This document shows, in pieces, positions 16,379 to 56,902 of a stretch of DNA of 64,000 nucleotides (within the stretch, counting starts at the first letter, position 1; each line of letters begins with the position of its first letter). Source of the DNA: Octopus sinensis (taxonomy: Eukaryota); assembly GCF_006345805.1 (NCBI RefSeq), contig NC_043000.1, forward strand, positions 91,698,001 to 91,762,000, in the 5' to 3' direction. The position numbers were made by a program, and so were the translations under genes. The notes beneath the pieces are model-generated. The model ran no database searches. It was not told the DNA's origin and saw nothing but the letters and a program-made list of their open reading frames with translations.

Positions 16379-16460
16379 CTATGTGTGTGAAATGTAACCT
16401 GTCTGGAATAGCACAACAATGCGGAGTGGACTAAAATACCTGTTATAAATAATTTAGCTA

Positions 16461-16520
16461 TTCATAGTCTAATATAATATTTCGGAATATAAAAATTCTT
16501 TCTTCAGATATTACTAGGAA
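16461..16520 (-). ncRNA. Minimal type I hammerhead ribozyme motif (first stem II pair mismatched)
   Basis: Reverse complement: taatat CTGAAGA a agaat-ttttat-attcc GAAA ta TT atatta. Confidence 0.6.
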
Positions 16521-17100
16521 GTAATAGAATCAATGTTATAGTTGGTTTTCCAACGGTGACTGAAATCTATCGGAATCGTCCTTGCAGCGGTCTCACGAAG
16601 GTCTTTCTGGAATTTCTCATGAGAAGTGCATGAGGGCGGTCATGTCTCGAGCTCGTATATATTGGCATATCCGGTGCGCTTCTTTCAAGTTATACGTACA
16701 TTTTTAATTTTTATATTTTTTTATATAATGTTTTGTTACATCAGCATGTTACCATCGTGCGTGCAGGGTGTCGATATTGTTAAATAATATAGTGATTGTT
16801 AATTTCCAACAACAGGTTGGAAATTAACAATCACTATATTATTTAACAACATCGACACCCTGTACGCAGGATGGTAACATGCTCATGTAACAAAACATTA
16901 TATAAATAAATAAATGCACGTATAGTACATAATTTGGAAGCAGCGCTCCGTATATGCCAACACATCGAGCTCGAGACGTGGCTACCCTCACGCACTTCTC
17001 ATGAGGAATTCAGAAAGGAGCTTCGTGAGACCAGTGCAGGGAAGCTTCCGATAGATTTCAGTCACCGTTGGAAAACCAACTATAACAGTGACTCCATTAC

Positions 17101-17160
17101 TTCCTAGTAATATCTGAAGAAGGAATTTTTATATTCCGAAATATTATATTAGACTATGAA
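17101..17160 (+). ncRNA. Minimal type I hammerhead ribozyme motif, intact core
   Basis: Stem I taatat/atatta (extended by tag/cta and ttc/gaa), CTGAAGA 17114-17120, extra A, stem II GGAAT/ATTCC, GAAA 17138-17141, palindromic ATAT helix III; predicted cut after 17145. Confidence 0.75.
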
Positions 17161-17549
17161 TAATTAAATTATTTATAACAGTTATTTTAGTCCACTCCGC
17201 ATTGTTGTGCCATTCCAGACATGCTACATTTTACAAACAACTCACAATGCTTCCAGCGAACTACAATACCCTCTTATACACACGCGCACACACACACACA
17301 CACACACACACACACACACACACAAGAATTAAAGTAAAAACTCAAATTAGGTAGTCAACGTTTTTACATACTCATACAGTTATAAATTCAACTTAAAATG
17401 CGTATATATATATATATATGTATATATATATATATATATTAATGACCAATAATAAATCTCTGAGCGAGGTATATACTTCACGATATATATTAATACATAT
17501 CGACATATAGTTTTAAAAATATAAATATACATAAAAATACATGTAAATA

Positions 17550-18850
17550 TTTTTGCAGGTTTTTATAGGGACGATGCGCTCCTTGCCACCCATGGCCTTC
17601 TGAACCGGCTGTAGAAAAGATGAAAAAAAGCCTCTAGGATTAACTATCAACAGCATTGTTACAGCTATTGCCATTAGAATCTCAAGTTTATCTGCCAACG
17701 AAGAGATCTTTAATCAACATGCTCCGGTTTACCATAACGCCTTGAAACTAAGTGGTTTTAATGATCAACTTTTTTTCATACCTAACACTCAACTTAAAAG
17801 AAAATTAGCAAGTATATCTCCTAACTCTATTTCTAAAATTATTAGCGCAAACCTTGTATTGATAAACATAGATATAAATAAACCACATGTTAATCATATC
17901 ATACCTAGTGGAATACAATCTAGTAATAAATATAATGAATATAATAGGTTTAAACATCTTCATTCTGAAAAGATTAACATGTTTATACAATCCAATTCTA
18001 GAAAACGCGAAATAATCTGGTTTGCTCCCTCCCTTTTTTCTCTTAGTGTTAAGAACTTGTCTAAGTTGTTTTTCAAGATCTTGAAGGCTAATTTTCCAAA
18101 GCACCACAAGTATTACTCGATTTGTAATAAATCTTCGATTAAATTTTCTTACTCCGTAATGTCTAATCTAGAATCTATTATAGCTTCCATAAATAGAAGT
18201 TAAATAAAACTTCAATCGAATAAGGACTCTAACACTAATAATGTACCTAATGTAGGCCCTGGTAATAATAACAAATGTAGAATAATAAATCTAAGTAAAT
18301 CTAAATTTAATGATGTTAGTCTACGTGAACCTTAGGTAGTTACACATCCTAACAACCCACCTGTAAAAATTATAAAAAAGGATAAAGCACAAAGACAATA
18401 ATAGGAATGCAAGCAGAACAATTTAAAAAAAAAACATGTAGCTGTAGAGTCCCTGAATCATGTCCACTTGCCGGTTCATATCTTAGGAAAAATGTGCTAT
18501 ATATGCGTACAGTAAACGTAGACAACCAAAAAATTAAGGGTTATATAGGAAGCACTGTTGATTTTAAGAGGGGATATAGAGTCCAATTAAATTCCTTTAC
18601 TAAAGTTAAGTATAAAAGTTCAACGACTCTCGCCCCATATATACACTATCTAAGAGATAGCAGCACCATACTTTACCCTGGTCCATAATTACGGAGCCCT
18701 TATAGTGCTTATTCGAATAGATGCAGGTTATATAAAAGGGACTCATACATTATCCTTAGATCATACAGTTTAAACACATTAAATAATTTCTCTGATGCGA
18801 TTCCCTCATGTAGTCATAAATTCCATTCCACTTTTTTGAAAATTTATTGA
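17550..18850 (+). mobile_element. Penelope-like element remnant (RT plus C-terminal GIY-YIG endonuclease), pseudogenised and internally deleted
   Basis: GFYRDDALL (YRDD 17564-17575); RISSLSANEEIFNQHAPVYHNALKLSGF; RKREIIWFAP; CSCRVPESCPL..NVLY..GYIGST; PYSAYSNRCRL. Confidence 0.85.
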
Positions 18851-19170
18851 ACCAAACATGTTGGACGATTGATTTGGAAGAATGCCTGCAACTTGAAACC
18901 TTTTAGCTCTTAGTACTGTGAATATTCCATTGTGTTACGATTAATTAGATTTAAGTATCACTAGGTTGTATTTGTTCCATCATTCCATGTTCTCCACTCT
19001 CTCATTTGCGTATGTAAGAATGAAGCTTTATATAAACCTATGTCAATCCCTCTGAAACAACCAAAAATTGTCAAGAATGTGATTCATGAGGATGCCTTTC
19101 CTGAATAATAATAATAATAGTAATAATAATAATAATAATAATAATAATAATAATAATAATAATAATAATA

Positions 19171-19536
19171 ATATGCATCTCTGATCACGAGCAGAAGTAT
19201 TGTGAGAGCATCATAGCCATGTGTTGAGAGGAAATCCTTGGGGCTTGAATAATTTACCTCTGAAAACATGGGTGTTTCGTTCAACATTTTTAAACAACCC
19301 TTATTCAGGGACCTTTTGAGCGGGATGGGCTACTCGACCTGACGAAAATACTAACTGGGCCCTACTTGTAATGTCATATGCTGTTTATCTTGATATGAGA
19401 TCACCATGTCGTGCACATATGGTTGTGATGCATGTGGCTGGTGTACCCTTATCAGACGGGTAGTTATGATGGGTATACTGAGCTTCGTATATTTTAACCC
19501 AGTGACATTTTGATGGCATGCACTGAACTCTCACTC
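19171..19536 (+). mobile_element. Family A element, 5'-truncated, after (AAT)n
   Basis: Matches the 3' two-thirds of the family and ends at ctcactc. Confidence 0.85.
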
Positions 19537-19551
19537 AACAATAATAATAAT

Positions 19552-54834: not shown

Positions 54835-55095
54835 TAGTAGTAGTAGTAGTAGTAGTAGTAATAGTAGTAGTAGTAGTAGTAGTAGTAGCAGCAGCAGCAG
54901 CGGTGGTAGCAGCAGCATTAGTAGCAGCAACAGCAGCAGTGGTAGTAATAGTAGTAGTAGTGACAGCAGCAGCAGTGGTAGTAATAGTAGTAGTAATGAC
55001 AGCAGCAGTAGTGGTAGCAGCAAAGCAGCAGCAGTGGTAGTAGTAGTAGTAGTAGTAGTAGTAGTAGTAGTAGTAGTAGTAGTAGTAGTAGTAGT
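54835..55095. repeat. (AGT)n/(AGC)n microsatellite
   Basis: Direct reading. Confidence 0.95.
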
Positions 55096-56211
55096 GTAAT
55101 AAGTGCGGCTCATGTAATGATAAACCAATATTTTATCGATAAACCAATATTTTATTGTTCTTTAACAATTTCTTTAAGTCTTTTCATTAAATTCCTTCAA
55201 GTATTTCTCATTATGAAGTGGTAAAGGAAAGAAGAATTTATTATTTTTAAGTTAAGAACTTTTATATTAATTATACTTTTATATTAATTATACTTTTCAG
55301 TTTTTATTAAAAAAAATTTCATGATGGGATTGATAAGCTATCAATGACATAAGAAATTTGCTGACCCCTGATTTAGCAGTATATCAAATTTACTGTTGGG
55401 AATACGTACCCTATGATATGCAAATATTATTGGCAGTAACATAGAATACAATCCTTGGAGAGATTTATCTCGTTTGCTTGAATCATGGAAGTAAAGCCAG
55501 GCACCATCAGATAGAAATTCCTTGCGGCTACTTATGTCATTAATATTATATTACATTTAATCCAAAGTTCCAATTTATCTGTGAAATAACCCCGTTGTTG
55601 GGTGAATTAACCCCTCTTGTTGCAATTAATATTGCTTTCCAGTAGAAGATATGTATCAATATTAATTTCAACAAGATTATATTAATCATATTAAACACTA
55701 GATTGGAAAGGGATAGAAATATAGAAACAATCGATTAAAATATCAAGCAGTGTTTAGTTTGATCTTTCTGAGTTATAATGAAACTGAAGCTTAAGTTATT
55801 TGTAATTTTTATAGGCTTAAAACACAAACACACACAAAAAGACCAAGTGAATGCAGATGGGAATATCCGATGAGGTGACTCTGGATATCAAATGAAGATG
55901 TGTCCTACTGCTAAAATGGCCAGCCTATGCAAGATTGTGAAAATTGGCACTGACACCTTAGTGGGGAGTGAATTTGTCATTATGGTTTTAGCTATGATGT
56001 TAAACCTAATATTAGTTGCTTATTGAAGTGAAAGGCAATAGTAATACCTAGATGAATCGATCTATATCGTGTACTTTGTTCCCACATGCTTTTAATGTTT
56101 CATCAGACTATTTTTTAATCTGGTGCCAGATTTCTGCTTGTGGTTAGGAAGCTTACTTCCCAAGTTTTTGCTGCAAGTTCAATTCCACTTGGGCATGTAT
56201 CTTCTGCTATA

Positions 56212-56468
56212 ATAAATAAATGTGCCCTTTTAAAGCCTAAACAGGCTCATGGGCCTGATTTTCCCGGTTTCTATGGCGTATGTGTTCCCCAGATGCATGG
56301 ACACCAGTCCATCGCAGCGTTACTCATCTTTGCCAGCTGAGTGGACTGGAGCAATGTGAAATGAAGTGTTTTGCTCAAAAACACAACACGTCGCCCGGTC
56401 CAGGAATTGAAACGACAATCTTACGATCATGGTGCTGACACCCTAACCACTAGGCCACGTGCCTCCAC
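56212..56468 (-). mobile_element. tRNA-SINE (family C-related) inserted into an older family D fragment
   Basis: Minus-strand head ggaggcacgtggcctagtgg; 13-bp TSD atcttctgctata at 56199-56211 and 56469-56481. Confidence 0.85.
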
Positions 56469-56511
56469 ATCTTCTGCTATAGACCCAGGTTATAAAAAGA
56501 AGCAAACTGTA

Positions 56512-56660
56512 TCATCATGAAGTTCACTTAACTAGTGCAGCCAGTGATTGGGCCACCACTGTTCTCTGTCCAATCCTTGATGTTGTCAGACCCTGATTTT
56601 ATCTGTCTCCTTCTCTTTCGCCCTCCCTCAACAGTGCCCTGAAGGATGGCTTTGGAAAGA
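56512..56660 (-). mobile_element. RTE LINE 3' fragment
   Basis: LSKAILQGTVEGGRKRRRQIKSGSDNIKDWT. Confidence 0.7.
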
Positions 56661-56834
56661 AGCCTATTTTATATATGTATATATATATATATATTACAGA
56701 GATGTACTTGCATAGCAAGTGATTTGATCTGAGATCGTGTGCTGAAACGAAAATAATTGCAGTGTGGAATGTGTTTGTAAGCCATTTAAGAAACGCACAA
56801 AAGCCGTTCGATTCACTTCAACATTTAAGTTTAA

Positions 56835-56885
56835 TTTGTCAAAATATTTTCGGCGCTTTAAGACCGCGACCTGTTCACTGACAAA
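56835..56885 (-). ncRNA. Hammerhead motif with G3:C8 core variant, within PLE-derived insert ~56695-56902
   Basis: Reverse complement: tttgtca GTGAACA g GTCGC ggtcttaaa GCGCC GAAA atat TT tgacaaa. Confidence 0.65.
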
Positions 56886-56902
56886 AATTCGTGCTGCATC
56901 TC

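What the first reader, a model, noticed from the sequence alone, without database searches (positions are those of the whole stretch)
16386..56902. Recurrent hammerhead-ribozyme mini-elements arranged as outward-facing inverted pairs (PLE-derived fold-back system)
Seen: three independent inverted-repeat structures (16386-17235, 22161-23314, 35518-35972) each carry a minimal type-I HHR motif in both arms. The left one is always on the minus strand and the right one on plus, and all lie in or next to TA-rich microsatellites. Related single inserts occur at 39507 and 56695. Established: Penelope-like elements carry minimal HHRs (extra nucleotide after A9, palindromic helix III thought to act as dimers) in their pLTRs and often generate inverted 5' segments. 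Inference: these are short, ORF-less, PLE-mobilised elements. A transcript through one would carry one sense ribozyme and its antisense, so self-cleavage competes with fold-back into long dsRNA, an ADAR/RNAi substrate in a lineage known for heavy A-to-I editing.
Basis: partly seen in the sequence, partly recalled or inferred. Interest (0 to 1): 0.75.

Follow-up and report, generated by a model that had tools for sequence, protein, structure and literature searches.

The report
Head-to-head Penelope retrotransposon ends
The three palindromes are broken-off ends of ordinary protein-coding Penelope-type jumping genes in their long-known head-to-head layout, likely made by two separate copying events at one insertion site, and the ribozyme motifs they carry are likely passengers that would be locked shut in any transcript.

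Summary
The three inverted repeats are real and face outwards, but they are not one mini-element system. Each is a 5'-truncated, head-to-head insertion of a different protein-coding Penelope-like (PLE) family with hundreds to thousands of copies in this octopus genome; longer copies run into RT and/or GIY-YIG ORFs. Only the 22 kb pair has an intact minimal hammerhead in both arms. The 16 kb left arm has a broken helix II pair, the 35 kb family has C at core position 9, 39507 has no ribozyme, and 56695 has a swapped G3-C8 core. Opposite-strand minimal hammerheads, inverted 5' copies, one-sided tails and TA targets are all published. Added here: 57 of 64 pairs join one tailed and one tail-less arm, and in 9 of 22 neither arm can be a copy of the other, which favours two independent primings over self-priming. 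Fold-back is predicted to bury the ribozyme (43-49 kcal/mol), so 'competition' is unlikely; transcription was not shown. This scan noted the same design, the two end sites, the G3-C8 core and the cap-G before, on other DNA. Ordinary overall.

The parts
16382..16810 (-). Family A left arm: 5'-truncated PLE end without tail; hammerhead at about 16470-16513 with first helix II pair broken
   Evidence: (L031)
16808..17276 (+). Family A right arm: last 12 codons and stop of the GIY-YIG ORF (16808-16846), 3' UTR/pLTR, hammerhead, tail
   Evidence: 81% to coding copy L129
17108..17151 (+). Minimal type I hammerhead motif, canonical core, 5-bp helix II, 4-nt palindromic helix III, 6-bp helix I; cleavage predicted after 17145, not tested
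17240..17276 (+). Optional tail of family A (about 37 nt), on the right arm only
22100..22343 (-). Family B left (short) arm with tail at about 22100-22160; intact hammerhead 22312-22279
   Evidence: (L001)
22347..23314 (+). Family B right (long) arm without tail: decayed end of the endonuclease ORF (22378-22461), microsatellite-rich UTR, intact hammerhead 23159-23192
   Evidence: 73% to L097 over 976 columns; 61% aa identity over 28 residues to family C endonuclease
35457..35764 (-). Family C left arm with tail at about 35457-35513; hammerhead-like motif 35673-35640 with C at position 9
   Evidence: (L061)
35762..35976 (+). Family C right arm without tail; hammerhead-like motif 35817-35850 with C at position 9
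   Evidence: 96-97% to coding copies L091, L092
39505..39658 (-). Family E: lone tailed 3' end of a related PLE family; no hammerhead found in this copy
   Evidence: 86% to L172, which has thumb and endonuclease coding upstream
56695..56902 (-). Family D: about 208-bp tailed unit with fixed start and an extra G at 56902; hammerhead fold with G3-C8 core starting at 56878
16180..16381 (.). TATC/TACA/TA microsatellite target on the left of pair A (similar tracts flank B, C and D)

Best explanation
The three palindromes are 5'-truncated insertions of three protein-coding Penelope-like retrotransposon families, joined head to head, and each pair likely arose when the element's enzyme nicked both strands of an AT-rich microsatellite and started two separate cDNAs on sense RNA, one at each of two fixed internal start sites. 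Shown: family membership, coding relatives, outward orientation, two fixed 3' ends, tailed/tail-less pairing, varied 5' breakpoints. Inferred: both-strand priming, possibly by a dimer, by analogy with the Anolis PAc enzyme, and joining of the two cDNA ends. The hammerheads lie in the pLTR and are carried along. In any read-through transcript they are predicted to be buried in a long hairpin, so these copies are likely dead on arrival, at most incidental ADAR or small-RNA substrates.
For: Coding relatives: C arms are 96-97% identical to the ends of L091/L092, which carry an RT ORF and a GIY-YIG ORF; that RT is 94% identical to a predicted Octopus vulgaris protein. A copies run into RT-thumb-linker-GIY-YIG (L133 reaches the Pfam cut-off). 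B copies run into endonuclease coding sequence. D long copies do too (Pfam GIY-YIG 25.2 bits, cut-off 22.6). Orientation in position-ordered lists: 12 outward, 0 inward, 1 direct pair within 4 kb among the first 100 of 5,276 D matches; 11 outward, 1 inward, 1 direct among the first 100 of 2,655 C matches. 3' ends fall at two sites per family. Of 64 outward pairs, 57 join a tailed and a tail-less arm, 2 have two tails, 2 have none, 3 are unclassifiable. In 9 of 22 A-C pairs the tail-less arm reaches at least 10 nt further 5', so neither arm contains the other; window pair B is one. PAc nicks and extends both strands, starts at two internal sites that bracket the tail, and does not need hammerhead cleavage in vitro (PMC11167929). 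Fold-back costs.
Against: No biochemistry on these families. In 7 of 22 pairs the tailed arm is longer and 6 are within 10 nt, which a fold-back model also allows. The paper reports no difference in start site between strands for PAc, so it does not itself explain why pairs use one site each. The long/short cut-offs were set after seeing the end distribution, most loci were best BLAST hits, and 14 loci were included because they were pairs. No fetched locus showed a tail continuing into the RT ORF. The clade was judged by motifs only; no tree was built.
Confidence: 0.85

Rival explanations
1. Same PLE origin, but each palindrome forms by self-priming or fold-back of one nascent strand (proposed on an antisense template by Arkhipova 2013), so one arm is a copy of the other.
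For: Proposed in print for head-to-head PLE junctions (PMC3846280). Many junctions have 0-10 nt gaps or overlaps, and 13 of 22 A-C pairs are nested or nearly equal.
Against: In 9 of 22 pairs each arm holds sequence the other lacks. An extra G precedes the fixed D start in 35 of 40 copies, where the long copies have C or T; this fits a capped sense template.
Confidence: 0.15
2. One reading: non-autonomous ribozyme mini-elements that work as a fold-back switch, with self-cleavage competing against dsRNA formation, under selection as a system.
For: The motifs are real and the outward bias is strong. Core positions are somewhat better kept than flanks in A (0.967 vs 0.910) and B (0.985 vs 0.927), on 9 positions each and without a significance test. 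D is short and has a fixed start. Lizard Penelope is heavily A-to-I edited and octopus is rich in dsRNA-forming loci (PMC5625713).
Against: Breakpoints differ per locus and arms run into coding sequence. Most copies have no outward partner within the fetched flanks (18-21 of 30 per family). The hairpin outweighs the ribozyme by 43-49 kcal/mol. Single minimal hammerheads did not cleave in vitro. Arms carry core and helix damage.
Confidence: 0.05
3. The palindromes are assembly chimeras.
For: No listed contig piece spanned the centre of pair A. PLE inversions are known to trouble assemblies.
Against: The arms differ: 46, 27 and 7 mismatches against 379, 156 and 191 matches. The tail is on one arm only. 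Contigs at single-copy depth carry the left arm (16546-16806, 1-2 differences, X1 and X2) and the right arm (16820-16899 and 16875-17075, no differences, X2); one of these runs may be the source sample.
Confidence: 0.02

Closest known systems
EN+ Penelope-like element insertions with inverted pLTRs (Adineta vaga Pen2/Pen2a, PMC3846280; overview in PMC8557442 Fig. 2)
   Same: Head-to-head inverted 5'-truncated copy, tail on one of the inverted pLTRs, pLTR covering the first codons of the ORF, simple AT-rich targets, RT followed by C-terminal GIY-YIG.
   Different: Thousands of copies here; tails of about 37-60 nt against 30-40; the tailed/tail-less pairing is counted (57 of 64) rather than noted.
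Minimal hammerheads in metazoan PLEs (Cervera and de la Pena 2014, PMC4209133)
   Same: Extra base between 9 and 10.1, long helix II, short helix I, palindromic helix III; dual motifs 100-700 bp apart on opposite strands already reported in Schistosoma and tied to truncated PLEs.
   Different: Two young families here have family-wide core changes: C at position 9 (family C) and G3-C8 (family D). The parts I read report natural U3-A8 only.
Poseidon PAc of Anolis (Frangieh et al. 2024, PMC11167929)
   Same: Two internal RT start sites bracketing the tail, AT-rich targets, hammerhead near the ORF start and dispensable for insertion in vitro.
   Different: Families A, C and D have a CX4CxxC or CX3CxxC linker before the endonuclease, which marks Neptune/Nematis rather than Penelope/Poseidon (PMC8557442). 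PAc showed no strand difference in start site.
Animal non-LTR retrozymes (bioRxiv 10.64898/2026.07.22.740005)
   Same: Short non-coding units with a type I hammerhead derived from PLE pLTRs; family D has occasional tandem copies (3 of 30 loci).
   Different: Retrozymes are defined as tandem arrays with an intact motif in each unit; A-C are variable-length inverted truncations and D is mostly single or inverted.

Membership tests
EN+ Penelope-like elements | RT followed by C-terminal GIY-YIG endonuclease in long copies | tested here: met
   A and C: both domains (Pfam RVT_1 hits below cut-off). D and E: thumb or linker plus endonuclease. B: endonuclease only.
EN+ Penelope-like elements | CCHH motif in the endonuclease | tested here: met
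   Two Cys inside the GIY-YIG core and two downstream His, read by eye in the translations of A, C and D.
EN+ Penelope-like elements | Hammerhead in the pLTR | tested here: met
   Canonical core plus helix II in 15 of 27 A and 20 of 30 B copies; variant cores in C (1 of 30 canonical) and D (0 of 30).
EN+ Penelope-like elements | Optional tail, often at one end only | tested here: met
EN+ Penelope-like elements | pLTR and tail cover the start of the ORF (partial tandem) | tested here: inconclusive
   The ends of B, C, D and E read as homologous Met-initiated open peptides, but no fetched locus showed the tail running on into RT.
EN+ Penelope-like elements | RT groups with PLEs in a phylogeny | not tested
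   No reference PLE set was at hand; the homologues carry no clade names.
Neptune/Nematis clades | CX2-5CxxC linker before the endonuclease | tested here: met
   Present in A, C and D; definition from PMC8557442. It does not separate Neptune from Nematis.
Minimal type I hammerhead | Canonical core, extra base after 9, helices I and II, palindromic helix III | tested here: met
   17114+, 22312-, 23159+. Not met by the C pair; D has the 3-8 pair swapped.
Minimal type I hammerhead | Self-cleavage, as a dimer or with protein | not testable with these tools
   Needs an in vitro assay.
Non-LTR retrozymes | Tandem units each with an intact hammerhead | tested here: not met
   A-C are inverted truncations of coding elements; D shows direct copies in 3 of 30 loci and a non-canonical core.
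Discrete non-autonomous element (fixed ends, no coding parent) | Recurrent fixed 5' end and no link to an ORF | tested here: not met
   A-C: scattered 5' ends, with a loose cluster in B. D: fixed start, but 7 of 30 long-type loci have endonuclease coding upstream on the same strand at E below 0.01.
tRNA-headed PLE (lead from earlier notes) | A and B boxes or a tRNA fold, and no run of four T | tested here: not met
   Family A only: one loose B-box-like 11-mer, no A box, scattered relaxed ARAGORN calls in 8 of 27 copies, and a T run inside helix II. Other families not tested.

The most novel reading that the evidence does not exclude
Penelope-like elements insert by an asymmetric double priming: the two cDNAs of one event nearly always start at different fixed sites, one on each target strand, on capped sense RNA. 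This explains the head-to-head structure, the one-sided tail and the short cap-ended leader copies in one step. Young octopus families also spread with a natural G3-C8 hammerhead that may still cut and with an A9C hammerhead that may not, which gives a ready pair for testing whether the ribozyme matters.
Probability: 0.5. Interest if true: 0.55.

Novelty: new member of a known kind. Interest (0 to 1): 0.32.

Why it matters
As a local feature it matters little: such pairs are a common fossil of PLE insertion, and three in 64 kb fits families of thousands of copies. The population of copies bears on an open point, since PMC8557442 calls the origin of PLE tandem/inverted structures undefined. The near-obligate tailed/tail-less pairing and the non-nested arms give a sharp prediction for the existing in vitro PLE system. 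A family with about 5,300 motif matches and a G3-C8 core would be a natural case of a swap that I saw in print only as a laboratory variant. These hairpins may add to octopus A-to-I hyper-editing, but that was not tested.

Tried and rejected
Rfam scan: only sub-threshold microRNA matches among the 150 shown of 195. Sequencing runs: no RNA holder listed, which says nothing about expression; contigs laid on pair A did not span its centre; no RNA contigs were laid, so transcription and editing stay open. Host gene: 88 of 142 open stretches were scanned with Pfam and none passed a cut-off; the best were a Tc3-type transposase piece at 60376-60585 and weak hits at 2735-3259, 36794-37069 and 51728-51928; short exons would be missed. 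tRNA-derived head in family A: not supported. A canonical C3-G8 version of the D motif: 0 exact matches, so no within-family covariation. A hammerhead-like heptamer at about 39610: no closing GAAA after a helix, and absent in relative L172; taken as chance. The first family C end mapping used a reference without tail and was redone. Compensatory changes within families were not counted formally; across families the helices differ in sequence and keep pairing, by eye. Dropped before the pair count: L032, L040, L145, L151, L170, L028 (same locus fetched twice) and L058, L155, L159 (same junction and flanks, taken as segmental duplicates). Left out of the nesting count: L066, L068, L184 (reference too short) and all D pairs. 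Literature searches for a natural G3-C8 core and for octopus hammerheads found none; supplements were not read and could hold such cases.
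Full report
Observation. The three inverted repeats exist at about the stated places. A is 16382-17276, B is 22100-23314 and C is 35457-35976 once tails are included. Left arms are on minus, right arms on plus, and all sit in microsatellite. 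A strict minimal-hammerhead scan found 3 motifs (17114+, 22312-, 23159+) against 0.04-0.08 in 100 shuffles; a relaxed core added the two C arms. Only B has an intact motif in both arms. A's left copy has lost the first helix II pair, and C has C at core position 9 in both arms. The 39507 insert is a lone 3' end without a motif. The 56695 insert has a G3-C8 core. The arms differ by 4-15%, and contigs from public runs carry each arm of A at single-copy depth, though none listed spans the centre, so chimeras are unlikely.

What they are. Each arm belongs to a large family in G000: 2,628, 1,167, 707 and 2,245 first-look candidates for B, A, C and D, and 2,655 and 5,276 exact pattern matches for C and D. 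Walking upstream shows coding parents. C copies run for 2.7 kb into an RT ORF and a GIY-YIG ORF; the RT is 94% identical to a predicted Octopus vulgaris protein, so the host is an octopus. A copies run into RT, thumb, a CX4CxxC linker and GIY-YIG, and the centre of the window palindrome holds the last codons of that endonuclease. B's 'spacer' is its own long right arm, starting in endonuclease code. E matches L172, which has thumb and endonuclease upstream. D has a fixed start, but 7 of 30 loci picked for the longer form carry a GIY-YIG ORF upstream on the same strand. The linker points to the Neptune or Nematis clade (PMC8557442); no tree was built. The ends of B, C, D and E are homologous and read as Met-initiated peptides, as expected if the pLTR covers the ORF start, but no locus showed the continuation.

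Layout across the genome. Among the nearest 30 loci per family, an outward partner was seen in 9 (B), 8 (A, counting loci fetched twice), 10 (C) and 12 (D); most copies are single. Position-ordered lists, free of best-hit bias, give 12 outward, 0 inward and 1 direct pair within 4 kb for D and 11, 1 and 1 for C among 100 matches each (counted by eye). 3' ends fall at two sites per family, about 37-60 nt apart. After dropping nine duplicate loci, 64 outward pairs in 156 loci split into 57 tailed plus tail-less, 2 with two tails, 2 with none and 3 unclear; 57 against 4 gives p = 2e-13 under even odds. The cut-offs were set after seeing the data, and the D query held the tail. All three window pairs follow the rule. 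5' breakpoints differ from locus to locus in A-C, so the palindrome is not the unit that spreads. In 9 of 22 A-C pairs the tail-less arm reaches at least 10 nt further upstream while the other holds the tail, so neither can be a copy of the other; in 7 the tailed arm is longer and 6 are about equal. I had seen the one-sided tail before reading earlier notes; the idea of counting pairs by end site came from notes e1-8807173 and e1-10332717.

Mechanism. The Anolis PAc protein nicks and extends both target strands, starts reverse transcription at two internal sites that bracket the tail, prefers AT-rich DNA and does not need hammerhead cleavage (PMC11167929). The simplest reading, which is inference, is that one insertion event primes two cDNAs on opposite strands, one at each site, each stopping at its own point; their ends are joined, leaving the element's 3' ends facing outwards. 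That paper saw no strand difference in start site, so why pairs use one site each is unexplained. The published alternative is self-priming on an antisense template (PMC3846280); non-nested pairs argue against it. In family D, 35 of 40 copies that stop at the fixed start have a G in front where long copies have C (7 of 9) or T. The split is 27 of 28 in the set found with a query holding that G and 8 of 12 in the position-ordered set; in five cases the G may come from the partner arm, and three tandem loci count twice. The base before the G varies (A 19, T 8, C 8, by eye). This fits copying of a capped sense RNA to its first base (the cap reading is from my own knowledge of L1); a splice acceptor at the same place is not excluded.

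The ribozymes. On either strand of an outward pair the antisense arm is made first. Predicted folds of whole elements are -593, -341 and -363 kcal/mol on plus, with 27 of 27 core positions paired to the far arm; freeing the core costs 43-49 kcal/mol, while isolated motifs fold at -6.5 to -12. A single minimal hammerhead did not cleave in vitro and dimers cleaved weakly (PMC4209133). Real competition between cleavage and fold-back is therefore unlikely. Two young families spread with altered cores: C9 in 96 of 100 C matches, and G3-C8 in 92 of 100 D matches, with no C3-G8 copy. The C3G/G8C double mutant partly restores cleavage in PAc; natural U3-A8 is reported; my searches found G3-C8 only as a laboratory variant. 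Whether these loci are transcribed is unknown, and no host gene was identified. If transcribed they would be good ADAR substrates, as lizard Penelope is (PMC5625713).

What is known. Cervera and de la Pena already report dual minimal hammerheads 100-700 bp apart on opposite strands and tie them to truncated PLEs. Craig et al. describe the inverted 5'-truncated copy, the one-sided tail and TA targeting. Arkhipova et al. describe the same anatomy in a rotifer. Seen of each paper: PMC4209133, parts 1-2 of 4 (abstract, results, discussion); PMC11167929, passages and the second half of the main text; PMC8557442, PMC3846280, PMC3884650, PMC3088659 and PMC5625713, passages only; bioRxiv 2026.07.22.740005, part 1 of 5. 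No supplements were read. This scan has noted the same design, the two end sites and the G3-C8 core elsewhere in this genome, and the cap-G in another genome; these are unchecked notes, and my counts above are my own.

Verdict. Observation partly confirmed; interpretation partly supported. These are new members of a known kind: ordinary head-to-head PLE truncations. The fold-back ribozyme system is not supported. What keeps some interest is the pairing rule with non-nested arms, and the two family-wide core variants, all testable with existing assays. Interest 0.32.

Noticed in passing
window 56695-56902 (family D): Hammerhead fold with G3-C8 core in 92 of the first 100 listed of 5,276 pattern matches; the C3-G8 version has 0 matches. 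Fixed start with an extra G in 35 of 40 copies (8 of 12 in the position-ordered set), probably the copied cap; the sequence upstream also resembles a splice acceptor.
   Followed up: yes
window 35640-35850 (family C): Young family (96-97% identity) with C at core position 9 in 96 of the first 100 listed of 2,655 matches and a non-palindromic helix III; it spread with what may be a dead ribozyme.
   Followed up: partly
window 56903-57118: A fourth palindrome (88%) abuts the 5' end of D; its outer ends resemble the last endonuclease codons of family A. No match in the loci held.
   Followed up: partly
window 17604-18200: A 199-codon open stretch beside pair A looks, from recall, like a decayed PLE thumb/linker region; no Pfam hit and no tblastn hit with my queries.
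   Followed up: partly
window 1-392, 4410-4972, 5525-6080, 6143-6684, 7024-7710, 19170-19536: A cluster of a roughly 560-bp interspersed repeat, 80-96% alike, in both orientations.
   Followed up: no
window 46644-47538 / 47671-48568 and 44395-44636 / 44659-44900: Local tandem duplications of about 900 bp (97.6%) and 242 bp (100%).
   Followed up: no
window 60376-60585 and 36794-37069: Tc1/mariner-type transposase fragments: Pfam HTH_Tnp_Tc3_2 at E 2e-7, just under its cut-off, and a weak HTH hit.
   Followed up: no
window 51728-51928 (-): Weak Pfam ILCR1_N match (E 0.003, below cut-off); could be a host exon or chance.
   Followed up: no
L172:2090-4276 region and L171: PLE families nest in each other's microsatellites: a D copy sits beside an E-family head-to-head pair in L172, and a clipped D start joins another family's RT fragment in L171.
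   Followed up: partly
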